A stretch of 63,598 nucleotides of DNA, the filler included. It is 8 parts of 8 records of this genome, joined end to end, with 100 filler letters (N's around TTAATTAATTAA, not from the genome) between each part and the next. Parts side by side here need not be neighbours in the genome. Positions count along the whole stretch, not along the records: positions 55,166 to 60,111 come from SRR7504441_2193; 7 more parts are not named here. One strand, 5' to 3'. Every line of letters starts with the position of its first letter. The first letter of the stretch is position 1. Positions 8,924-60,211 of the stretch are shown in pieces. Both the position numbers and the translations under genes were made by a program. The notes below the pieces were generated by a model. The model was not told the origin of the DNA. It did no database searches and worked only from the letters and a program-made list of their open reading frames with translations.

Positions 8924-10339
8924 CTACTCACTCGTATGCTCCGGGCGATCCGAGGACCATGAGCGTAAGGTTTGCAAAATTGTGGCTCGAGCAGCCGTCA
9001 CCTGCTCCGGGTCGTGCGCAGGACTCGGATAAAACGTATCATAAGTGTGCGCCATCCGAGCCACATTGAGCACCTTTAGCTCGGCAGAGGCAGGCCCTAG
9101 GTCCTCGATGGGCGAGAAACTGCGGACTGGGTCGTAGCCTCCGTTCACCCACAAGATGCGACTGCTGTTGCGGATCACCGTTAGATTGACGTATTCACGC
9201 CACCAGCGGATTGGCTCGAATGGCGTGTGGACATCCGGCCACTGCGCAGTGCACTGTGCCAGCACACTGGAGTAGTCGTACGGGCTGGGAACGGCGAAGA
9301 TCCCTTGACCGGCGACCGGCTGCACGAATTGACTGCAAGTGAGATAAGACCACGGCCGCTCCTGAATCGGGAGAGGACCGCTGTTTGCCACCGAAAGGTC
9401 AGTCTCAGCGGGCTTGTAGCTGAAACAGGGGAGACTGCCGCTCCGGTTGTAATACATGGACATGGCCGTGTGCAGCAGCGCTTGTGGCTCAGATGCCGCT
9501 AGCTGGCAGAGCTGAGCCAGTGGATTTGGACTAGCCCACAATGGGTTTTGTACGGGGTAGTCAAACTGGGCGGCAGCCGAGAAGGCCCACCTTGCATAGT
9601 AGAGTAACAAGTAGACATCAGACGCCGTCCCGACTGGAGAGCACAGCCGCAGCTCCGACTGCAGCGCCGCCCTCTGTCCACTGTCGATCCTGCTAGCGAA
9701 GACGGCATCAAACTGCCGTTGCACCGCATCGGCACACGTCAACGGACCATGCTGTATCGAGCTGTAGCTCTGACTCACGTGGTCGAACTATGTTGAATTG
9801 GGCACGTCGCCCACCGTGTAGACTGCGGCAGCGCTCGCAATCGCCCCGGCTACTGTCTCGCGGTGCTTGATTCTCATCAGCATGGCCAGAAACCCGCCGT
9901 AGCTCCCGCCGAACGCGAACACCTTTCCGGCACCGAGCGCAACCCGCAGCTGAGTGGCCAGCGCCGCGTAGTCGGCCAGCGCCTGCTCCACACTCAAGTA
10001 GCGCACATTGCCGCCGGCGAAACTGCTGTTGCCGAACGGGAGTGAGTCCCCAAAGTACCTGTGCTCCGCGGCCACCACCGCTCCCCCGAGCGCTTTGGCG
10101 TACAACACGATGGCAGTGGCGTACTGAGTGACACTGACACTGGCCAGGGCAGTCTCGGGTCCGCAGTAGAAGAGCAGCGGGCCGCCTTTAGTATAGTGGG
10201 CCAGGTTGGTGAAATACTTCTGCCGGAAGCGGCGGGGGTCGGCCGGGTTGGAATGATCCAACGGCTGCTCGATCCACTGCTGCGGGGGCGCGCCGCACGC
10301 GAGCGCAACCAACACGGTGAACGCCGCAGCACGCCGCAT
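8924..10339 (-). CDS. Serine carboxypeptidase S28 (Pro-X carboxypeptidase-like), interrupted by an in-frame TAG at 9788-9790
   Basis: Signal peptide. Motifs QPLDH, FRQKY, AEHRYFGDSLPF, YLSVEQALADYA, FGGSYGG nucleophile, NGGYDP and AH. ORFs 9788..10408 and 8924..9778 are in the same frame. Confidence 0.88.
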
Positions 10340-22900: not shown

Positions 22901-25498
22901 CTTTGTTGGCAGTTTGGCTATCAGCGTATGACATCACCTCCACACATAAAGAGTTGAGAGGATCCATTTGATCATATGGCGGGGCAAGCTTCTCCAGGAT
23001 AGCAAGACAGCACTGAACAAATGCCATATTGGCGTCGTAATCAGACATTGCTCGTCCCCACCAGTAGTATTCTTTCTCAAGGATGAGATCAGCAGCATTG
23101 GCAGGAGTCAGTGTGGAGCCTATTGTCCCAAGCACTGCAACTTGGCCACTCGATTCCATGTCATTGAGCAGCTTTAAGATCAGGTCCTTCACCTCATCCC
23201 GCTCGTACTGAGATCTGCACCAGGGCCTCACAACTTTAGGGTTAGGGTTAGGGTTAGGGATCTAGATCTGCACCTCACAACCTTAGCAGATCACTAGCGC
23301 ACCTGGCTGATGTCAATCGCTCAAGCATCTTTTCCGCATGACGAGCAAATAGCTGGTTGTGTCGCGCGAGGTATTCAATGAATGCCTTGCCCTCGGAGTT
23401 GAGCAAGTATGGGTTGTACCTGTCACCAAAGAGCTCCTCGAAAAACTTGCATTCGTCGATCCAGTCATGAAACGCCTTTGGACTCAGTGCGCAGCCCTCG
23501 AGCTCCTCCTTGTGCTTGTGCCAGGTAGGAAATGGCATGACTTTGGTCTCGATCTTACCACTGTCGACCCACTGCATTTCTATCTTGTACATGTTGTACT
23601 TGGGCCGGTAGGTGACTGTGGAGTACTTGTAAGTTGTGACCGCTGGTTTCTCCTTCTGGCCCTCAAGGCTGATCACTTTCAGGATCTCAAACTTCTTCCG
23701 GTTGAGGTAGTTTGTGTCCCAATGGTCAGATGTCACTTCACCCACTCCAGGGCCGTCCACCATCCGTGTCTTGTGCACCTGCACCCAGGCTACCAACCGG
23801 CAACCAGATACAGCACATCACCTCAGTTGCTCCAAGCGTGCGCACTTTCTTGAGCGCAAACTGGTGCATCGGCACTCGATCGGTCCGCCAGCACTGCAAG
23901 ATACAGTGCATCTCCACTCGAAACGTCTTGTTCTGCACCACACTGAGTGAGCAAGCGCAAGCCTGGCCAGCTGCCTTGTCCTCCTGTGAGACAGCCAGCC
24001 GGCCGAGCTTTTCGAACACGGTGTTGAAGTCGGGCAGCTCGTCGTTCTCCCACTTCCAGTGGTGTGCGTCGGCCACAGTGCACTCGCCGAGCACCTTGAG
24101 CACGTTCTCGAGCGCCTGTGACAGTTGCTCCTGGTCAAATGCCTCTTTGTTGTCCGCGAGCAGGTTCAGGATACCCACAGACCCCACCATCGCGTTAGCC
24201 AGCTTCCGGCTGCTGCTGGCCTCCTTTTTGGCCTCTGCGAGCGAGCTCTTGTTTGATTCGTTCTCGTTCTGCGCCAGAGCATCTGCAGCCGCCTTGACCG
24301 CTGCCTCGCTGGCTGCAGCCTGCTGTTGGAGGCTGGCCAGCTCGAGCACCCGGGCGTCTAGGTTGCGCTGGACCAGCGCCTTGAGCTCTAAAGCCACCTG
24401 CTCGCGCTCTGCGCCCACGCTGTTGGCCAGCTCCGCCCGCTTGACAGCAGCGTGAACATCAAACTCTGCGTGCTCCCACTCGGTCCGCGCGGCCTGCTGC
24501 TCGGCCGGGAGCAGCCCCAGCCCGGCCCGGATGATCCCGAGCTCGTCCACCAGCGCCCGCACCGCCTCGAGGTGCTCGGGCGTGCCCTGCGGCCGGCTCA
24601 CCAGGCACTCCAGCCGAGCCCCACCTTCTTGTGCTCGTTGGTGTACAGGATCCGGACCCACTTGCCGGCGTACCTGCGGAGCCTGATGGCCGGGCCGTGT
24701 GGGCCGGGCACCAGGTGAGCTCTGGGCTGAGCAGCTGCTGGAGCACAGGCAGGTACTGCAGGCTGCTGTTGAGTCGTACGTCCCAGTCGATCAGCCGAAT
24801 CAGCTCGAGCAGGATCTTGAGCGTGTCCTCCTTCTTCTTCTGCTGCTCGGTCGGGTACCCGTGGAACTGGCCGGCGCACTCGGACCCGAGCTCCTCTGCG
24901 ATCCAGTGCAGCAGCGAGCTCGCTTTCCCGTGCAGCGGGGCCGAGATGAACGACAGCGCCTCCTGCTTGCTCACCTCGTGCTCGCCCTCGTACTGGTCGC
25001 ACAGCACCTGCGTCGCCCCCTCGCCCTCCGGCCGCCGGCCGCCGGACCTCCCGGGCGAGCGTGATGGCCCGGGCGAAGGTTTGGCGGAACTCGACAGAGT
25101 GGTGCATGTGCATCTTGACCTCGCGCACCCCGTCGAACAGCTCCGGGTCGGTGAGCTGCTTGGCCTGCACCCCGTACGAGTAGCCCGCCGGGCTGTGCTT
25201 GATGTAGTGCACCTGGCCGGCAGCCTGGCGCCGGCCCGCACCAGCTGGGCGGCACCGTGCTGTTGTCGCTCACTCGGAGCAGCTCCAGCGTGGTGTGCTC
25301 CGGCCTGAGCTCCTTGCCCTCGCAGATGAGCTTCATCTCCTTCGGCCCATTCGCGAACCCGGTGATCCGTTTCTTGAGCTCGGCCACAGTCAAGCTCGGG
25401 CTCACGTCCAACAGCTTCTCCTCCCCGATCTTGTTGGCCCCGACCGGCTTGACCGTCAGCCGCTGGGCCGGCGTGTACGGCTTGCTGTACGAATGCAT
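16961..25498 (-). CDS. Very large ubiquitin carboxyl-terminal hydrolase (peptidase C19, USP9X/24/34-like) with N-terminal ubiquitin-like domain and C-terminal UBA-like region; 3'-truncated
   Basis: N-terminal UBL (LTVAELKKRI...MKLICEGKEL). Cys box GLNNQGNTCYQNSTLQQIF, QQDASEFY, His box GIVIQSGSAMAGHYYSFIR..WNEFNDSSV, and AYMLIY. UBA-like CLKAIQALGHCEPPAAVNWII. ORFs are joined by short introns. Confidence 0.9.
23236..23259 (+). repeat. Interstitial telomere-type repeat (TTAGGG)4 inside an intron
   Basis: Four perfect TTAGGG units within the minus-strand intron 23215-23302. Confidence 0.9.
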
Positions 25499-37427: not shown

Positions 37428-37936
37428 CACTTGAAATCGCATGTATACATGTATAGTAATGTATAGTAAATGACATTGTATAGATGATCGCGCTTCAAGA
37501 CCTTCAAGACTAGTGCGCAAGTTTGTCAATCCACACTAATCCACACAGTCACTAAATGGGATATTGTGTCTGGTTAATTAAACCCCGACCTACAATCATG
37601 TACATGTACGTACACAATCCTCATGCGCCGTTGAGCCCGCGCCGGGCCCCTTGGAAGCACCGGTCGTACGTACTACGTATGTACTACGTATGTACGAGTA
37701 CGAGTAGTCGAATGGTAGTCTAATGTAGTCGAGTACGACTCAGTACATGTTAGTACATGTAGAGGCATTTTTACGGTACCGGACCCGTACACGTGTATAG
37801 CACGTGTACATTCGAAGTCGACTTTTGAGACACGTGTGGTCTATCTATAGTTACGTATAAACCGCACCAAGAGCCGAGCGCACCTCGGAGACGCAACTAG
37901 CACGCCACGCTCTTGAAAGCGCACGCGACCTGCGAA

Positions 37937-50256: not shown

Positions 50257-52227
50257 TCATGATAACGGCGCACCCAGAGCGGCCGACCCGACCAGCTTAG
50301 AGTAATTTGCGAGTGCTCCGCGCGGGTACTTACTCGGTTTGGGTTTCCACTGTTCTTTGCGAGAGGCCAATTCATCGTCGGGCACATTCAGCTGCAGCCT
50401 GCGAACTCCTGAGCAACATCCATAGTCAGAACACACTCGCACTATCAATAGCACCGGGCGTAACATCGATCGAAATGATATCCCCATCACGAACGAGCGC
50501 CAAAGGCCCTCCAACAGCAGCCTCTGGCGAGACATGACCAATCATTATTCCGTGATTTGCTCCAGAAAACCTCCCGTCGGTGACTAAAGGCACCTGCACA
50601 CTGCACTCAGAGGCATGCCACACAACGGCAACTGACAGTAGCGCCCAGCCCGCGGCCGACCAGTGCGCCACCAGGCGAAAGCATTTCGGGCATCCCCGGG
50701 CTTCCTTTGGGTCCTGCCAGCCAGCTCGAGGGATTGGACGGCTAGTGGACGGACCTTCATACCGGATGACCAGCACGTGACCAGCCGTTACTTGCCCAGC
50801 CATCACGGCATCGTACGCCTGGTGCTCGTCGTCGAAGCAGCGAGCAGCCCCTTCTATTGTAGTGATGCCCTTCCCGGAGATCTTGCACACACAGCTTTCC
50901 GGGGCAAGATTGCCCCTCAGGATCACAATGTGCCGACCTAGGCCACGCTCGCCCCGCCCGCAGCCGGCCACACACCCGGAGGGGCCACTGGGCTGTCAAT
51001 TGGCACAATCACGTCTTGGCCCTCAGGGAGAGGGGGTGCTGACAGTAGATTCTCTCTCATCGTCTTGCCTGTGACAGTGAGAGGATCCCCGTGCAACAGC
51101 CCGGCTTCGAGCAGCAGTCGGAGCACCACCGGCAGCCCGCCCATGTCGTGCAGGTGCTTGGAATACGAGTAAGACCCGTGCGGCTTTAGCTTAGAGATGA
51201 GCGGCACGCGGTCTCCAATCCTGTTGAAGTCATCCACTGTCAGATCGACATCCGCCTCGCGAGCCAGAGCCAGCAGGTGCAACACAGCGTTAGTAGAGCC
51301 CCCGAGCGCATAGAGCGCGGTGATCCCGTTCTCAAACGCCTCTTTAGTCAAGATGCTCCGGCTGTGCGTCTCTGCCTTGAGCAGCCCGAATAATGCCCGG
51401 ACTGAGGCCCGGCAGTCCTCGTGCTTGCCTTGATGCACCTTGGCAGGGTCCAGCCCGACCCCCGGGGCGGCCATGGCTGGAGTGGACGAGCTCCCTGGGA
51501 GCGCCATCCCCATAGCCTCGAACATGGCTGCCATCGTCGAAGCGGTGAACATTTCACCACACGAGCCCACAGAGCCCAGACAGTGCTGCTCCACGTATTC
51601 GAGCTCTTCAATATCAATCGTCCCGTTAGAGAACGCGCCCTGCGCCTCAAACGCCGAGCCAGCCGAGAGCGCCTGCGACCCGAAATGTTTCTCCCAGCCG
51701 GGGCATTTACCGTTAGTACTCCCAGGGAGCCGGCCGCCCCCGTACAGAGTGATGCCAATGTGATTCCCCCGGGGAATGGGCATGAGACAGCCCGGCTGGG
51801 TCTTATCGCAGCCGCCGAGCGTGATCAGCCCGTCGGCGTGGTAACCCTCGTGCATCAGCTCGATGTGGTTAGCACACATGTCCCGGCTGGGGAGTGAGTA
51901 CTTCATTCCTTCGCAGCCCATCGCCATACCGTCCGTTATTACCGGTGGGAAGCAGACGTACGGCCGCCCGCCCAGCTTGACCACCTCGTCCACGATAGTG
52001 TCCACCAGCAGCTGGAAGTGCTGGTTGCATATGTTGGCCTCGCCAGCGAATGGGGCGGCAACAGTGATCACCGGCCGCGAAAAGTCGGAACGGTCCCAGC
52101 CGCTCATCCAGGAGAAACCGCGGGCCCCAACCCGGCGCACCCACGAGTCGGTCCCGGGCTTGCCGGTCATGGCGTACGACCGCTTCTTGAGCTTGCTCAC
52201 CTCTTCGTCGACTGGCCGTGCCTCCAT
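50257..52227 (-). CDS. ilvD: Dihydroxy-acid dehydratase / IlvD-EDD family dehydratase (4 introns)
   Basis: Motifs [83 protein letters not shown] and [12 protein letters not shown]. Confidence 0.93.
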
Positions 52228-53582: not shown

Positions 53583-53707
53583 GATCTGACCAATTGGTGT
53601 TATATATACGCCCTAGTTAATACGGCTTCCGGTTATGTGGCTTAGGATCGACTTCACGAATAAATGTATCTATACTGTACTAGTTAACACGACTATGAGA
53701 CCTCGAT

Positions 53708-55004
53708 TCATTCCACTTCGGTAAACTCGCAAAAGACAAGGTTGTGATCCGACAGGTCCCTTTCGCCTTCCACGCCCATCATAGGGACCGTCGCATAATG
53801 CCGGGCGGACCATTGCACGAGCCCTCTTGCCCACACATAATCTACTCGAGTGTTATAACTGCTAGTCACCAAAAACGGCCCGCTGCGCTCCGGGGCCGTG
53901 GCGCCACAATCCACAAACCCTGACTCTTTCATTAAATCTGTGAGCGCGCTCTCCGGAGCATGCCGACCCGCTTCCTTCCGGGGCCTCACGATCTTCTGCT
54001 CCAACCACTCAGGCGAATAGTCTGTGAGTGTAAGCGAGTTCATATCGCCAGCGAGCACCAACGGCTTGCCGTCCATCTGTGCCTGCTGCAAGGTCTTGAG
54101 AAGCACCCCCATCTGCCTCAGTCGGTTCCCTTCCCCGTTAGAGCTCAGGTAGACAGCAGTCATCAGGAACTCGCCAGCCGGATGCATCACCGACGCCATC
54201 ACGAACCGCGGGCCCGGATTTCGAAAGTCGTTAGGAGTTAGCTCAGTGAGCTGTTCGCTCGGTAGGCTGAGTAACCTGCCAGGGTTGAGCTAACGCCTGT
54301 GGCCCCACACGCACCGGCCATGCTGCTTGATGTGGGCACTCCACTCCGCCTTGCCGTCGTCCACTAGGACGGCCCATTGGGCAGATAGCGGGAATCTACT
54401 CAAAATCCCGACACCGTTCCCCGACCCTGCGTAGTGCATCGACAGGCTGTCAGCGAGTTTCCTGAGTGAGGTTGTGCGGCCTTCGAGCAGCTCAGTGAGC
54501 GCTACGACGTCCAGCCCCAGTCGCAGAATCGTCTCCCGGATCCCTTTGTAACCTCGCTTCTTCCAGAGGTGCACGTTCTGGGCCGCCACGTCACACCCAG
54601 CCCAGCGCGCTGGCCTACCAGCGTGCCGATCTTGAGCGTACACGCACCACCCGCCTCGCCCCCAGCCCCGGGGTGCTCAGTGCGCATGGCCGCGGGCTCG
54701 GCGGCTGGTTGCATCTCGGTGGCTACCCGCTCCAGATCGACGGCCAGCCCCGCCAGGTGCTCATCCGAATCCTCCGAGCACTGGAACAGCGGCGATCAGC
54801 GCGGGGGTTGGGGGGCAGCACCGGCTCCGAGGCGCTCGCCGAATCATCCCGTGTGCGCTCGACAGGCGCCACCCCAGCCCAGGCTTCGTACCGATGCAGC
54901 AGCGTCGGCTTGCCGGGCGCGGATTCCACCAGCGCTGGCGGCATGCCGAGCGACAGCAGGTGCCTCTTGAGCTTGACGTAACCGAACCCGGACAGGTCCT
55001 CCAT
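53708..55004 (-). CDS. Endonuclease/exonuclease/phosphatase (EEP) family protein (multi-exon)
   Basis: NVHLW, LDVVALTE, GILSRFPL, LAGDMNS, RVDYVW and SDHNLV: the EEP catalytic motif set. Confidence 0.85.
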
Positions 55005-55065: not shown

Positions 55066-55165
55066 NNNNNNNNNNNNNNNNNNNNNNNNNNNNNNNNNNN
55101 NNNNNNNNNTTAATTAATTAANNNNNNNNNNNNNNNNNNNNNNNNNNNNNNNNNNNNNNNNNNNN
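55066..55165. other. Artificial contig spacer
   Basis: N44-TTAATTAATTAA-N44. Confidence 0.98.
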
Positions 55166-55374
55166 CTGAATTGCCTGTGTTTGGTTGATTGGTTTTCGTG
55201 ACCCCACAGTGATCCTGTGATCACTCGGCATGTTTACATGTACACGTACTCGTACATGCTTCCCGACTGAGAGACGTTTTAACCTGCCTACCTGCTGTAG
55301 CTAAGTACCAGGTTCAGTGGCAGCTGCTGCTACAGTAAGACCAAAAGGTTTTAACGGCCAAGACCGGCTGACCG

Positions 55375-58300
55375 ATGGAGGCCGCGGCCGACAGCCCAGC
55401 GCCAGGTGGGGCGTCCGAGTTCTGGCTGGGGCTGGTGCAGCGGACCATCTCACAGCTGGTCGTCCCGAAGCACTCGATCAGCATCCGGCCGAACCCGCTT
55501 CTCTTCGGCCGCCTGCCGCCGAGCGCCGGGCCGATCACCCGCGAAATGACTCTGTTCAACGGCGGCAGCGTTCCGGCGGCTGTGCCGGTGCTGCTGCAGC
55601 TGCCCAGCGAGCCGAGTTTTCGGGTGGTCGACCCCGCGGGCATCTGGGGCGGTGGGGCCGTGGAGCTTCCTCCAGGCGAAGAGCTCACTGTCCAGGTCGA
55701 GTGGAGCCCTCCGGCCGGCCCTGGGGTGCTGTCGCAGTACGTGGTGCTCGGTTGCCAGACTGAGGAGTGGGACCCCACCACACTCAGCCTCCGATCCAAC
55801 AGATTCGTTGTTGGATGCCAGCTGCGCGCTGTCGCGGCCGAGGCTGATCACGCCTCGGTGTCTGGCCTGTCACCTGAGGCGAGGCCGTTCGTACCGGGCT
55901 GGAAGCGGGCCATGTGGTGCGCTCCAACGGAAAGAGTCTTCCGTCCGAGCTGGCCGACGCTTCCTCTGTACGACTGCTGGCCACGGGATGAGCACCATCA
56001 GCTGCCTGCGGAGGAGCCTCTTGATGAACTCAAGCGGGTGTACCTATCTTACGTCGCCCAGGCGGCGGCAGCAGAGCTCGGGCCGGGCCGGGCGGTGCTG
56101 CCGCACCAGTGTGCCGCCTGGATCTCGGCGATAGATCAGGCGCGCTGTGGTAGACAGCTGGTGGGCTGACTGGACTCGTTCAGGCTCACGGAGAAGACAG
56201 GATCTCGGCGGCCGAGGGGCGGGTGCAGGCCGACATGGTGCGCCTGGGGACGGCGCCGGCGTACGAGCAGCACGCGGGTGTGGGCCCGCCGGCGGCGCTA
56301 ACGGCACCGGTGACCCCTCCCCTATAGTATTATTGGGCCTTATAGGGCCCGATTCACGAAAACCCGCCCACCAGCACTGTTTTTCACGTCTCCGACCCAC
56401 CGGGGGGGGGGCGGTGGGCGGCATTTTGCCGCCGGATTGGGCTGAGACTCGGTGTACAGCTCTGTAGTAAGTTACTGTAACTTGGAGTCAAAGCTTGCTA
56501 GCATCTGATCAGCGCTGCTGCCGCCCGACCCATTTCGGCCGTTATAGGCGGTTATAGGCGGTTATAGGCCGGTGGAGGCCGTTATAGGCCGGTGGCTTCC
56601 GTTAGCCCTTGCTGCTGAGCCCTGACCCGTAGGTAACGCCGGCGGCGGATTGCAGTTGGGTGAGAGTGGGCTCAGCGATGCAGCGGCTGCAGCCGCCAGA
56701 CACGACGGTGCTACTAAACTACAGCATAGTATAGCATAGTATAGTATATGACATGCTGCTCGCTCCGAGTCCGACCGTCCAGCCGACAGGTCGAGCAGTG
56801 CCGCGAGGACTGGGACGAGGACAGCAGGCTGCTTACCCCGTCGTCCCGGCTGCCGCCCGCGGTGCCAGTCCTGGTGAGGAATTCGACTCGGCTGTTTGCG
56901 GAGGAGCTTGCAATGCACGTCGACTTGCTCCGGTCAGTCGGCCGGGTGCTGTGGGCGAGCTCAGGGCAGGTGCTCGCTCTGGGTGGAGGAGAGCATGATG
57001 CATCGTGACCTGAACACGCTCGACATACAGTCCTCGTGCCTTAGGTATAGTATGGACCTATAGTATAGTTTAGTATGGTATACAGTACAGTATAGTTTAG
57101 TATAGTATGGGCCTGAACACGCTCGACATACAGTCCTCGTGTCTCAGGCCACCCCAACGCAAGACCGCCAAGCAGGCCCGGGACGTGGCTGCAATACATT
57201 TGCCCGGACTACCAGAAGGCAGGCCACCTCTGCGGTTTGGGGACGTGGTGCGGCTGCGCTGGCTCAAGCGGCCGTATGGAGCCGAGTGGCATGGGATCAT
57301 GCTTGGCAAGCAGAACGCCAGCACAGCGCTGTTTCGGCTCAACCCTGAAGTGTTCGCTGGGCCGTTTGCTGACGCGAGTGGCAATAAGTTTGACCCGCCA
57401 GCAGCTTTCGAGTGCCCGATCACGCATCAGTTGCTGGAGGATCCTGTCGTGTGTGAAGACGGACAGAGCTATGAACGCACGGCGATTGAGCGGTGGCTCA
57501 CGCACAGGTGAGTGTATAGCGTTGGTATAGCGATTAAGCGGTGGATACAGCTGCAAGTCGCCTCTGACTAACGCGCCAATGGGCTGCACTCTCATCCCGA
57601 ACCATCAGTTGCGCAGCCAGGTCACTATACTATGCTATACGAGATTATACTATGCTATGCTCGTTTGAATACTATATATGCTAGATTGTGCTAGACCATA
57701 CCGGGTGCAGGTGATGGAGTGGCAGTCGGCTCACCCGCTCGCCAGCTGCCAGAGAAAGCCCAAGTTTGCGATCAGGTTTCAACTAAACAGGTGCGCCCAT
57801 TCACGCAGCTGCAGACCAACCCCAACACAGGCAGCCGCTGGAGGCCATGCACTGGGCTCTAGACCTGGTGGCCACGTCGGCAGATTCCAGCGCAAGGCTG
57901 TTTCCTGACCCGTCCGACCTGCCCTGCGCTCCTCAGCCCAATGGTGCGACAGTAATATAGTAAGCATGATATTCCGTGGCCGACTTGGGCTAAAAGGGCT
58001 CTGGCAGACTATAGTAAAGTATAGTACACGTATAGTAATATAATAGAGTAGTACACGTATGGCTGACTTGGGCTGGAAGGGCTCTGGCAGAACCGGAACG
58101 GGGCGTGGGCCGTGCTGACACCCACCCGGATCGCACTGCTCAACGCCGACTTTACAGGCGAGCATAGCACTACTAGCACTACTAGCACTAGCATAGTCTC
58201 GTATGCTAGACTGCTGAACGCCGCTTTCACAGAGGCCAAGTCGGTGGAGCGCCAGGAGCCGGAGCAGGACACCTCCGCGCTGCTTGTGCGGCTCTTCCGG

Positions 58301-60034
58301 CGAACCAAGCTGCTGGGCGTAGACGGGAGTGCAGAGAGGTGCGGCGAGCTGCCGTGGGCATACCGAGCCCATGCGAGCGTGGCGCGCGCGGTGCAGGCAA
58401 GGCTGGAGGTCGAGCCACAGCAAGGCCGGGCCGTGCTGGGTAGCAGGCTTGTGGAGCAAGCGGTGGACGGCGCGCCTGATCGTGGCAGCTGGATTTCAGC
58501 CAGGCAGAATAGCGAGCAGCAGCGCGCAGTGCATGCGATCACCAGGCGCGCTATGGGGCCGGTTCCGTTCCTGCTGTTTGGCCCACCCGGGACCGGAAAG
58601 ACTAAAACAGCGGTCGAGGCAATCCTCTCCGCGCTGGAGTTTTACGACACGGGCGGGATTGCAGCCTGGGCGCCTGGAGGTAGCATTGAGGGCAAGTCGG
58701 TGCAGATCCTGGCGTGTGCGCCGTCCAATTCGGCAGCGGATGTGTTGGCGAGCAGGCTGGCCGAGCTACTGAGAGAGTATTGCGAGGCCCATCCTGACAG
58801 CCAATTGGGCAAGTCTTGGGAGCAGAATCGGGTGCTGCTCCGACTTAACTCTTTCCAGAGGAGTCCGGACGAGGTGCCCCAGCAGTTGCATCAGTTCTGC
58901 CCGATCGACAATGCCCAGGGCATGTATGACATGCCTCGCAACCTGGCCGAGTACCGCGTGGTTGTCACGACCTGCATCACCAGCCAAGTGCTCGCTCAAC
59001 AGTCAAGATACGGCCAAACGCGCGAGTTTATCCCAGACTTTGTGTTTATTGATGAGGCTTCGCAGGCCATGGAGCCCGAGTCGCTAGTGCCGATCGTGGT
59101 CGCCGGGGAGGCGGCGTCGGTGGTGTTACTGGGAGATCCCAAGCAAATCGGACCCACCTGCAGGGCTTATTACTCGCGCAGTCTTGGCCTTCAAGTCTCG
59201 CTGCAAGAGCGGTTAATGCAGCGTAAAGTGTATACGAATCATGGCGATTCGTGCTTTACAAAGTTGGTCCGGAACTACAGGTCGCATCCAGCTCTACTGG
59301 CACTGCCTTCACAGGTGTTTTACGATAATCAGCTGCAGGCCGAGGCCGGCACCGCAGAGGCCGAGTCACTGCTTAAGTGGTCTGAGCTGCGAAACTCCGA
59401 GTGCCCTATGCTGTTTGTGGGTTTAGAAGGGGAAGACAAGCATGACATGGACAGCCCGTCTTTCTACAACCCGATGGAGGCCACCGCCATATGCGAGCTG
59501 ATCAAATCATTACTCGAATGCCGTCAAGTGGACGGACTCACCACTGATGACATTGGGGTGATAGCTGGCTACCGGAAGCAGGTGATGGCCCTCCGGTTGA
59601 TTTTAAGAGCGAGTGGCTTGTCTGGGATCCGGGTGGGCACCGTACAAGACTACCAGGGCCAAGAGGAGAAAGTGATCTTTGTCTCGACAGTAGTGTCCCG
59701 ACGGCACTGGCTCCACCAGTCTAACGCGTGCAGCCTGATGGCGAGCCCTACACGGTTTAACGTGGCCATCACTCGTGCTAAGGCGCTGCTGTGTGTTGTT
59801 GGCAATCCGCATATTCTGGTTGACGATCCTTGGTGGCGGCTGCTACTCGAGCGGTGTGCTGCCAACCAATGCTATGTGGGTCCGGAAGTCACACTGGAGG
59901 ACGGCGCGGGGGGCACGGCAGCACAAATCGGAAAGCTGGCCAAGCTAGCGTTGTTGAGTGGCTTGCCACAAAGTTCATTTGCAGATGAGTCTATGTCGAC
60001 TTCCTCAGATATTGAGTGGCGGGTAATGCTGTGA
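55375..60034 (+). CDS. MOV10/SDE3-like SF1 (UPF1-type) RNA helicase with an inserted U-box domain
   Basis: N-terminal Ig-like region, LWVEESMMHRDL, LPGLPEGRPPLRFGD and FQLNRQPLEAMHWAL. Helicase motifs FGPPGTGKT, ILACAPSNSAAD, FIDEASQAMEPE, LLGDPKQIG, LVRNYRSHP, YQGQEEK and RFNVAITRAKALL..VGNP. About 10 introns in the 5' half. Confidence 0.9.
57009..57147 (+). repeat. 36-nt direct duplication flanking TATAG-type filler (intron 57045-57147)
   Basis: 57009-57044 and 57112-57147 are 34/36 identical. Confidence 0.92.
57407..57722 (+). other. U-box domain coding segment within the helicase
   Basis: Spliced (introns 57508-57550 and 57621-57710): FECPITHQLLEDPVVCEDGQSYERTAIERWLTHSCKSPLTNAPMGCTLIPNHQLRSQVMEW, matching the U-box consensus. 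Confidence 0.9.
57977..58091 (+). repeat. 32-nt direct duplication flanking TATAGTA filler (intron 57952-58090)
   Basis: 57977-58008 and 58060-58091 are 29/32 identical. Confidence 0.9.
58135..58232 (+). repeat. 23-nt direct duplication flanking CTAG/TAGCAC filler (GC-AG intron 58158-58232)
   Basis: 58135-58157 and 58210-58232 are 19/23 identical. Confidence 0.85.
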
Positions 60035-60111
60035 TGGCAAAATAATGGACGCACTAGGGATAGCCTGAACATTAGAGCACTGAGATGAATTCCATTTTAA
60101 TGCGTGAATAA

Positions 60112-60211
60112 NNNNNNNNNNNNNNNNNNNNNNNNNNNNNNNNNNNNNNNNNNNNTTAATTAATTAANNNNNNNNNNNNNNNNNNNNNNNNNNNNNNNNN
60201 NNNNNNNNNNN
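60112..60211. other. Artificial contig spacer
   Basis: N44-TTAATTAATTAA-N44. Confidence 0.98.

What the first reader, a model, noticed from the sequence alone, without database searches (positions are those of the whole stretch)
57009..57147. Apparently young intron made of simple-repeat filler plus a duplicate of the upstream coding exon end
Seen in sequence: the last 36 nt of a coding exon (CCTGAACACGCTCGACATACAGTCCTCGTGCCTTAG, encoding LNTLDIQSSCL) recur 34/36 identical as the last 36 nt of the next intron (57112-57147). Between them lie ~67 nt of TATAG/TAGTA filler beginning with GT. Removing 57045-57147 restores the MOV10-type frame (LWVEE..RDL...RPP..LPGLPEGRP). The duplicate supplies the AG acceptor and a branch-like CTGAA, and the filler supplies the donor. 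Both mismatches are synonymous in the coding frame. Inference: intron gain by a long target duplication with a de novo microsatellite insert, for example break repair or slippage/telomerase-like synthesis. This differs from classical introner transposons, which have short TSDs and share internal sequence across copies.
Basis: partly seen in the sequence, partly recalled or inferred. Interest (0 to 1): 0.85.

Follow-up and report, generated by a model that had tools for sequence, protein, structure and literature searches.

The report
Repair-scar intron with long target duplication
A helicase gene of an unnamed GC-rich protist carries a short repeat-filled insertion flanked by a 37-base duplication of its target, probably spliced out as a new intron, and three more scars of the same build lie nearby, one filled with telomere repeats.

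Summary
57009-57044 recurs at 57112-57147 (34/36; 35/37 with the next G), around AT-rich TATAG-type filler. I could not test splicing: no RNA run holds this part.

Indirect support is good:
- MOV10-type motifs lie in two frames on either side.
- Removing 57045-57147 gives one open frame of 943 codons, 56761-60034.
- 15 of 17 exon differences from a second strain are synonymous.

A rival stays open. A 61-nt intron made of filler only (57045-57105) would leave the second copy translated.

The case is not isolated. The window holds three more scars built as target copy, simple-repeat filler, target copy:
- 57977-58091, inside an existing intron.
- 58135-58232, in frame.
- 23208-23286, in another gene, filled with four perfect TTAGGG repeats.

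Duplications are 23-37 nt. Seven of eight termini end in YAG.

Best reading: repair of staggered breaks, with fill-in and added repeats. This is the Daphnia-type route to new introns, with much longer duplications. It does not meet the introner criteria tested: no inverted ends, and long, variable duplications. A genome-wide family could not be tested, because no genome is held.

I rate it a new variant of a known kind, interest 0.55.

The parts
57009..57045 (+). Copy 1 of the duplicated target: the end of a coding exon, whose last base is 57044, plus the G that becomes the first base of the donor.
   Evidence: (D9). It lies in the frame of ORF 56878..57063.
57046..57111 (+). Filler of 66 nt made of TATAG-type pentamer repeats. 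GC is 0.30, with an internal repeat of period 27.
57112..57148 (+). Copy 2 of the duplicated target (35/37). It ends in the predicted acceptor CAG, followed by the first exon base G.
57045..57147 (+). Predicted 103-nt GT-AG intron, phase 2. Inferred; not seen in RNA.
   Evidence: Frames. Homology on both sides. The model is open for 943 codons, and a homologue alignment crosses the joint.
56970..57044 (+). Exon carrying the MOV10-type LWVEE..RDL..LDI motif.
   Evidence: tblastn with P0007 residues 362-386. Both strain differences here are synonymous (2 of 2).
57148..57507 (+). Exon with the LPGLPEGRP motif and the start of a U-box.
   Evidence: All strain differences here are synonymous (4 of 4).
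57952..58090 (+). A 139-nt intron holding a second scar: copy 57977-58008, filler 58009-58059, copy 58060-58091 (29/32). The duplicated piece is the 3' end of an older intron plus one exon base.
   Evidence: (D10). The frames need a removed length of 3n+1. A 2-nt deletion in the second strain at 58067 fits non-coding sequence.
58135..58232 (+). Third scar: copy 58135-58157, filler 58158-58209, copy 58210-58232 (19/23 ungapped by eye; 22 matches with two 1-nt gaps). Spacing is 75 nt, in frame and without a stop. It may be translated or spliced GC-AG.
   Evidence: (p about 0.003).
23208..23286 (-). Fourth scar, in another gene: copy 23208-23239, filler 23240-23261, copy 23262-23286. The TTAGGG run is 23236-23259, four perfect units on the + strand, whose first four bases (TTAG) belong to copy 1. 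The scar lies in the predicted intron 23215-23302 of a minus-strand gene.
56712..56750 (+). TATAG-type island without a recognisable flanking repeat, upstream of exon 56761-56932.
   Evidence: The repeat differs in the second strain (loose ends).
57621..57710 (+). A 90-nt intron filled with the same repeat in the opposite orientation (CTATA-type). No flanking repeat was found.
   Evidence: It has a 17-nt exact reverse-complement match to 56729-56745.
57508..57538 (+). A 31-nt intron with two TATAG units. A 14/15 repeat of 57482-57496 starts at 57530 and crosses its acceptor.
   Evidence: p about 0.004. The model is open.
56933..56969 (+). Ordinary 37-nt GT-AG intron of this gene, given for size comparison.
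   Evidence: Frames. The model is open.
57791..57830 (+). Ordinary 40-nt GT-AG intron of this gene, given for size comparison.

Best explanation
The 103 nt at 57045-57147 are a repair scar turned intron.

Proposed sequence of events:
1. A staggered break opened in an exon of a MOV10-like helicase gene, just after the sequence TTAGG.
2. Both ends kept the same 37 nt, so fill-in duplicated the target.
3. Before the ends were rejoined, 66 nt of TATAG-type short repeats were added or captured between them.
4. The duplicated G plus the filler's TATAG make a GT donor.
5. The second target copy ends in CAG|G, the usual acceptor of this organism.
6. Filler plus one target copy can therefore be removed exactly, restoring the original message.

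Shown: the duplication, the filler, the frame logic, purifying selection on both flanking frames, and three more scars of the same build.

Inferred: the break and its repair, the source of the filler, and the splicing itself.

My odds:
- Insertion with target duplication: about 0.9.
- Spliced at 57045/57147: about 0.65.
- Break repair rather than a mobile element: about 0.5 against 0.25.
For: Repeat and filler.

Coding on both sides:
- MOV10-type motifs sit on both sides in frames one base apart: 56968-57042 with P0007 362-386, and 57194-57250 with P0007 405-423.
- With the 103 nt and five other introns removed, 56761-60034 is one open frame of 943 codons. Unspliced, the frame stops after 81 codons.
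- An alignment to P0007 (361-423, 36% identity, E 1e-5) runs across the joint.
- Of 18 differences to contigs of two other runs, 17 lie in inferred exons and 15 of those are synonymous. That includes 2 of 2 just upstream and 4 of 4 just downstream of the insert.

Splice sites:
- The acceptor CAG|G matches the other introns of the window, read by eye.

Recurrence:
- Scar at 57977-58091 (29/32), scar at 58135-58232, and scar at 23208-23286 with four TTAGGG units. In the last, the duplicated target ends in TTAG, in register with the repeats.
- 4 of 9 TATAG-type islands tested have flanking repeats with p below 0.005.

Precedent:
- Staggered-break repair leaves a repeat of the exon end at the far end of new Daphnia introns (PMC4202315, passages read).
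- Telomeric repeats are inserted at staggered breaks with target duplication and in-register microhomology in mammals (PMC2246262 and PMC7215372, passages read).
Against: - No RNA read or spliced contig covers the joint.
- At 103 nt, the piece is two to three times the length of this organism's ordinary introns (31-40 nt in this gene; about 37 nt in the dehydratase gene).
- The donor GTATAG is unlike the GTGAGT, GTCAGT and GTGCGC seen elsewhere.
- A shorter intron within the filler is also frame-compatible.
- Repeats of 23-37 nt are far longer than the 4-12 bp reported for Daphnia.
- The origin of the TATAG-type filler is unknown. The same repeat in six islands of one gene could mean a mobile or locally copied sequence rather than independent synthesis.
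- No empty site was found. Protein and metagenome searches gave no relative.
Confidence: 0.6

Rival explanations
1. The intron is the filler only: 57045-57105 (61 nt), or 57063-57105 (43 nt). The second target copy is then translated, giving the protein a tandem repeat of about 14 residues. The event would be a coding duplication plus a microsatellite intron.
For: Both shorter introns are GT-AG, remove 3n+1 nt and leave the frame open (model B is open for 957 codons). They are closer to the 31-45 nt typical here. Copy 2 encodes the same peptide as copy 1 in the downstream frame (ORF 57101..57511). If both copies are under selection, that would explain why both differences are synonymous.
Against: The acceptor would be TAG|T, whereas CAG|G dominates in the introns read here. 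The alignment to P0007 across the region is worse with the extra 14 residues: 31% identity and E 2e-4, against 36% and 1e-5. Two synonymous differences out of two happen by chance about one time in nine.
Confidence: 0.2
2. The fillers are copies of a mobile sequence. It could be an introner-like non-autonomous element made of TATAG-type repeats. Or it could be a tail-only product of target-primed reverse transcription by a non-LTR retrotransposon whose RNA ends in the complementary repeat. That mechanism naturally gives long duplications of variable length.
For: The same repeat type occurs in six islands of this gene and in both orientations. Fillers D and H both have a period-27 substructure. 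Duplication length varies (23, 32, 37 nt), as in target-primed reverse transcription. As in Micromonas introners, the insert gives the donor and the duplication gives the acceptor (review PMC11282704, passages read). Contigs of another run match the islands but continue with unlike sequence, which hints at copies elsewhere (loose ends).
Against: The fillers of D and H have no terminal inverted repeats. Published introner duplications are 3-9 bp and fixed within a family (PMC9860276). No reverse transcriptase or transposase domain turned up in 51 ORF translations of the window. The nearby endonuclease-fold ORF ends at its own stop, with no reverse-transcriptase ORF after it. The similarity is low-complexity. 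The telomere-filled scar has the same build without any such element.
Confidence: 0.2
3. Nothing functional: the duplication is an assembly artefact, or the 5' half of the gene is decaying.
For: The scaffold has N gaps with linker sequence close by, at 55067-55166 and near 60110-60210 (X runs in the ORFs). The 5' part of the gene (56150-56760) could not be modelled.
Against: The copies differ at two sites. An independent run shares copy 1 and the start of the filler. 15 of 17 exon differences are synonymous. The exon model is open over 943 codons.
Confidence: 0.03

Closest known systems
New introns of Daphnia pulex made by repair of staggered double-strand breaks (PMC4202315, passages read; the 2009 Science report is recalled only)
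   Same: An inserted piece sits in an exon. A direct repeat of the exon's last bases lies at the far end of the new intron. Internal direct repeats occur inside young introns.
   Different: The Daphnia repeats are 4-12 bp; here they are 23-37 nt. The filler here is a pentamer-type simple repeat shared by neighbouring introns. Presence/absence polymorphism, shown in Daphnia, could not be tested here.
Introners, transposon-derived introns such as Micromonas IE1 (PMC11282704, PMC9860276 and PMC12130899, passages read)
   Same: The insert supplies the 5' splice site, and the 3' AG is co-opted from the target duplication, so the insertion is born spliceable.
   Different: Introners have 3-9 bp duplications, often inverted ends, and a complex consensus shared genome-wide. 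None of these is seen here. Those surveys discard low-complexity families by design, so cases like this one would not appear in them.
Intron gain by tandem genomic duplication of an exon piece holding AGGT (review PMC3443670, passages read)
   Same: A duplicated exon segment provides splice-site sequence, and removal restores the original message exactly.
   Different: Here the two copies are separated by 66 nt of unrelated filler. The original exon read AGGC, not AGGT.
Short interstitial telomeric sequences inserted at break sites (PMC2246262 and PMC7215372, passages read)
   Same: This applies to the scar at 23208-23286: perfect TTAGGG units, a target end (TTAG) in register with the repeats, and duplication of the target as at staggered breaks.
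   Different: Those cases are in mammals. In those surveys, duplications were a minority: 4.6% of rodent loci, 16% of primate loci and 4.5% of horse loci. None of the passages I read links them to intron structure. The TATAG-type fillers are not telomeric.

Membership tests
Spliceosomal GT-AG intron | GT at the 5' end and AG at the 3' end | tested here: met
   GTATAG begins at 57045 and CAG ends at 57147.
Spliceosomal GT-AG intron | Removal joins two frames that are both coding | tested here: met
   Homology on both sides. The model is open over 943 codons. Strain differences in the two flanking exons are synonymous, 6 of 6.
Spliceosomal GT-AG intron | The spliced junction is seen in RNA | not testable with these tools
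   No run on record as RNA holds this part. The one possible RNA run covers only 59449-59925.
Introner (transposon-derived intron family) | Terminal inverted repeats or other defined element ends | tested here: not met
   The fillers at 57040-57115, 58005-58063 and 23205-23290 have no terminal inverted repeat. The filler at 58155-58212 has only a weak pair of 9 of 11.
Introner (transposon-derived intron family) | Short target duplication of fixed length (3-9 bp in PMC9860276) | tested here: not met
   The duplications are 37, 32, 23 and 25-32 nt.
Introner (transposon-derived intron family) | Many near-identical copies in unrelated genes | not testable with these tools
   No genome is held. In the window, 16 of 18 matches to the 10-mer lie in this one gene.
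Break-repair neo-intron (Daphnia type) | [quoted passage not shown] | tested here: met
   35/37.
Break-repair neo-intron (Daphnia type) | An intron-free allele or orthologue exists | not testable with these tools
   No relatives were found. The one other strain seen has the insert's 5' junction.
Tandem-duplication intron (AGGT model) | The two copies abut, and both splice sites come from a duplicated AGGT | tested here: not met
   66 nt of filler lie between the copies. The second copy is followed by GC, not GT.
Interstitial telomeric insertion at a break (scar at 23208-23286 only) | Perfect telomeric units with the target end in register, and changes to the flanking target | tested here: met
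   Four TTAGGG units at 23236-23259. Both target copies end in TTAG. The target is duplicated, with a 6-nt and a 1-nt indel between the copies.
Tail-only non-LTR retrotransposon insertion | A parent element with reverse transcriptase whose 3' end carries the repeat | tested here: inconclusive
   None was found in 51 ORFs of this window. The rest of the genome was not available.

The most novel reading that the evidence does not exclude
This tiny-intron protist may have a recurrent repair route that makes and lengthens introns. The proposed steps are:
1. Nicks fall after YAG on both strands, 23-37 nt apart.
2. One 3' end is extended by a reverse-transcriptase-like activity with short TAG-containing repeats. 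These are TTAGGG, from telomerase, in one case and TATAG-type in three.
3. Fill-in duplicates a stretch that carries a branch-like site and a 3' splice site.

The scar would then be spliceable from birth. That would tie telomerase-type end healing to intron origin.
Probability: 0.12. Interest if true: 0.8.

Novelty: new variant of a known kind. Interest (0 to 1): 0.55.

Why it matters
How new introns arise outside transposon-driven bursts is still argued, and clear fresh examples are few. This case shows nearly every part of the event: target, duplication, filler and splice sites.

The window also holds sister scars at different stages: one in an exon, one in an old intron, one in frame and one filled with telomere repeats. 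If a genome-wide scan of this organism finds many such scars, three things become testable:
- Break repair with long overhangs as a general source of intron birth and intron growth.
- A possible role for telomerase-like synthesis.
- A class of low-complexity introns that published introner surveys filter out by design.

From one window, it is a well-documented anecdote with a small local series.

Tried and rejected
- **RNA evidence.** No RNA holder is listed for 55200-60050. Two runs with small shares were laid and showed no joints. One possible RNA run covers only 59449-59925.
- **Orthologues.**
  - The helicase part finds only distant MOV10/SDE3 proteins, 40% identity or less.
  - The exon 57149-57508 finds no longer protein.
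  - The one metagenome locus returned is a GC-rich, bacterial-looking contig matched over 44 residues. I treat it as spurious.
- **Organism.** A dehydratase ORF gave a best named hit in a choanoflagellate at 52%, and one unnamed transcriptome fragment at 82%. The lineage stays open.
- **Retrotransposon next door.** The endonuclease-fold ORF 53708-54289 (minus strand) ends at its own stop, with no reverse-transcriptase ORF after it. No such domain appears in 51 ORFs scanned.
- **Earlier notes of this scan.** There is nothing on this genome or sequence. One note on another genome describes a comparable long target duplication.
- **Flanking repeats at other islands.** The islands at 56322, 56712, 57625, 57953 and 37452 have none above background.
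- **A 10-mer match at 10187.** This is ordinary sequence, not an island.
- **Literature.** Searches for intron gain with telomeric repeats and for new introns with microsatellites and target duplications listed no report of this arrangement. I read listings and abstract starts only.
Full report
**What is there**

The window is a GC-rich (about 0.5-0.66), intron-poor stretch of an unnamed eukaryote. It has uninterrupted ORFs of up to 1478 codons.

From about 55375 to 60034 on the + strand lies a gene for a MOV10/SDE3-type helicase. AAA_11 and AAA_12 domains are found, and the best database relatives are 40% identical or less.

- 57009-57044 recurs at 57112-57147 with 34 of 36 identical bases.
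- Counting the next G, the repeat is 37 nt with 35 matches.
- The 66-67 nt between the copies are AT-rich (GC 0.30). They consist of TATAG, TATGG, TTTAG and TACAG units, with a period-27 substructure.
- Among 3000 random flank pairs from this window, none scored as high: maximum 23.5 against 32.

**Is it an intron?**

I could not test splicing directly. The run search listed no RNA holder for this part. The two runs that I laid gave contigs but no joints.

The indirect evidence is consistent:
- Homologues match 56968-57042 in one frame and 57194-57250 in the next frame. So a piece of 3n+1 bases must leave the message between them.
- I removed 57045-57147 together with five other GT-AG pieces: 56933-56969, 57508-57538, 57621-57710, 57791-57830 and 57952-58090. 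This leaves one open frame of 943 codons from 56761 to the stop at 60034. Unspliced, the frame stops after 81 codons.
- An alignment to homologue P0007 (residues 361-423, 36% identity) runs across the joint.
- Contigs of an aquatic metagenome run and a seawater run are about 98% identical to the gene. Of 18 listed differences, 17 fall in my exons and 15 of those are synonymous. That includes 2 of 2 in the exon before the insert and 4 of 4 in the exon after it. Two are non-synonymous (D to E, M to V) and one lies in the 37-nt intron. Both frames are therefore under purifying selection, and the gene is not decaying.

Against the prediction:
- 103 nt is long for this organism. Its ordinary introns are 31-40 nt in this gene and about 37 nt in the dehydratase gene.
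- The donor GTATAG is unlike the others I read.

**An open rival**

Enumerating all GT/GC...AG pairs that keep the frame open gives 18 combinations. Two of them lie wholly in the filler: 57045-57105 (61 nt) and 57063-57105 (43 nt).

With either one, the second copy would be translated as a repeat of about 14 residues. It would also be under selection, which would explain why both differences between the copies are synonymous.

Homologues have no room for these residues. The alignment drops to 31% identity and E 2e-4. The acceptor would be TAG|T rather than the CAG|G common here. I therefore give this rival about 0.2, but only RNA can settle it.

**It is not a single case**

TATAG-type islands are strongly over-represented. 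The 10-mer allowing one mismatch occurs 18 times against 0.38 expected, and 16 of the 18 lie between 56725 and 58024. Eight clusters exist in the window, and six are in this gene.

I tested nine islands for flanking direct repeats:
- Four exceed the empirical background at p below 0.005: the reported one, 58009-58059, 58163-58209 and, weakly, 57514-57529.
- Five do not.

*Scar at 57977-58091.* A 32-nt piece (29/32) is duplicated around 51 nt of filler. The piece is the last 31 nt of an older intron plus the first exon base. The filler has no GT at its start. The whole 57952-58090 (139 nt) fits the frames, and the second strain has a 2-nt deletion inside the second copy, as expected for non-coding sequence.

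*Scar at 58135-58232.* The copies are 23 nt and the spacing is 75 nt, in frame and free of stops. It may simply be translated.

*Scar at 23208-23286, in a different gene.* Looking at weaker repeat pairs elsewhere, I found this one in a minus-strand gene.
- Its predicted intron is 23215-23302. The donor and the acceptor at 23215-23216 agree in phase.
- The intron holds four perfect TTAGGG units on the + strand.
- They are flanked by two copies of a 25-32 nt target, whose matched blocks are 11/11 and 13/14 and which differ by a 6-nt and a 1-nt indel.
- Both copies end in TTAG, in register with the telomeric units.
- Two extra bases sit at the far junction.
- This is the only telomeric run in the window.

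**How it most likely works**

All four scars have the same build: target copy, simple-repeat filler, target copy. The duplication length varies: 37, 32, 23 and 25-32 nt.

That pattern fits repair of a break whose two ends overlap by a few dozen bases. The overhangs are filled in, and sequence is added or captured before joining.

For the telomeric scar, the added sequence and its register with the target end match what was described for telomerase-linked insertions at breaks in mammals, where target duplications are ascribed to staggered breaks (PMC2246262 and PMC7215372, passages read).

For the three TATAG-type scars, the source of the filler is not shown. There are three candidates:
- Repeated, slipping synthesis at the end. 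The reported filler begins with a 14/15 copy of its own far junction, which suggests stuttering template use.
- Capture of AT-rich DNA of the kind seen in this organism's intergenic regions (12- and 17-nt matches).
- A mobile, repeat-tailed RNA or DNA.

In the reported case, the scar landed after AG|G. The duplicated G plus the filler give GT, and the second copy gives CAG|G. Removal is therefore exact.

**An unexplained regularity**

Seven of the eight termini of the duplicated segments, read 5' to 3' on their own strand, end in CAG or TAG at offset 0 or 1. The background for a random position is 0.071.

Three of these are needed as, or already were, 3' splice sites. Of the other five, four still fit, which by my arithmetic from that background has a chance of about 1e-4.

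I noticed this pattern after the fact, in four events, so it is a lead and not a result. It could mean a sequence preference of the nick or of the extending enzyme. On the sense strand, it could instead reflect selection for a branch-like CTRA at the start of the copy.

**Comparison with known kinds**

*Daphnia neo-introns.* This is the closest anatomy. New Daphnia introns carry a repeat of the exon end at their far end and often have internal repeats. Those repeats are 4-12 bp (PMC4202315).

*Introners.* The logic of donor from insert and acceptor from duplication is shared (PMC11282704). However, introners have 3-9 bp duplications, often inverted ends, and complex consensus sequences (PMC9860276). 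Here no inverted ends were found at three of the four fillers. No transposase or reverse transcriptase appears in 51 ORFs. Genome-wide copy number could not be tested. Both large introner surveys state that low-complexity families were filtered out (PMC9860276 and PMC12130899, passages read), so such cases would be missed.

*Tandem duplication (AGGT model).* This does not fit, because filler separates the copies (PMC3443670).

*Direct repeats at intron borders.* A recent survey reports repeats of 4-30 bp at intron borders (PMC11782384, abstract only). The present 37 nt lies above that range.

**Age**

The copies differ by 2 of 36. The other scars differ more: 3 of 32, and 4 of 23 ungapped.

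The second strain, about 2% diverged in this gene, already has copy 1 joined to the filler. So the event predates that split. The TATAG repeats themselves vary between the strains (loose ends at 56727 and 56747).

**Verdict**

It is unproven on splicing. It is wrong in treating the filler as unique and the donor as wholly filler-derived.

I rate this a new variant of a known kind. Interest is moderate to good, because the window offers a small series of scars, including a telomeric one. That series makes a break-repair route to intron birth and growth directly testable once a genome and RNA of this organism are at hand.

Noticed in passing
window 23208-23302 (gene on the minus strand): An intron of a second gene holds four perfect TTAGGG units, flanked by a 25-32 nt duplication of its own 3' part and the first exon bases. 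Both copies end in TTAG, in register with the repeats.
   Followed up: yes
window 57400-57720: A U-box domain (Pfam E 3e-8) sits inside the MOV10-like helicase, between the parts that align to residues 423 and 442 of homologue P0007. No protein with this exon was found in the large database.
   Followed up: partly
window 56877-56933 and 56968-57042: Two consecutive exons both carry the MOV10-type L..EE..MH.DL motif. This hints at an older internal duplication of an exon.
   Followed up: no
termini of the four duplicated segments (57009/57045, 57977/58008, 58135/58157, 23208/23239): Seven of eight termini end in CAG or TAG at offset 0 or 1 on their own strand, against a background of 0.071. This was noticed post hoc and is unexplained.
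   Followed up: partly
window 50938-50974, 56933-56969, 57508-57538, 57791-57830: Ordinary introns of this organism are only about 31-40 nt long and are not AT-rich. Introns carrying repeat scars are 88-139 nt.
   Followed up: partly
window 56150-56760: This 5' part of the gene could not be modelled. It holds an exact 11-nt repeat 80 nt apart (56120/56200), 5.5 copies of a 10-mer at 56537-56591, and two more TATAG-type islands.
   Followed up: no
window 55067-55166 and about 60110-60210: There are runs of N. The first, read, encloses the linker TTAATTAATTAA. These are scaffold joins close to both ends of the gene.
   Followed up: no
window 56727, 56747, 57623, 57644 (loose ends): Contigs of another run match the TATAG-type islands and then continue with unlike sequence. 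One reads as a pure GTATA repeat. The repeat varies between strains and may occur at other loci.
   Followed up: no
window 37440-37760 and 53655-53705: Intergenic and 3' flanking DNA carries related AT-rich short repeats (ATGTATAGTA, CGTATGTACTA, TACAGTATAG). These are a possible source or sibling of the fillers.
   Followed up: partly
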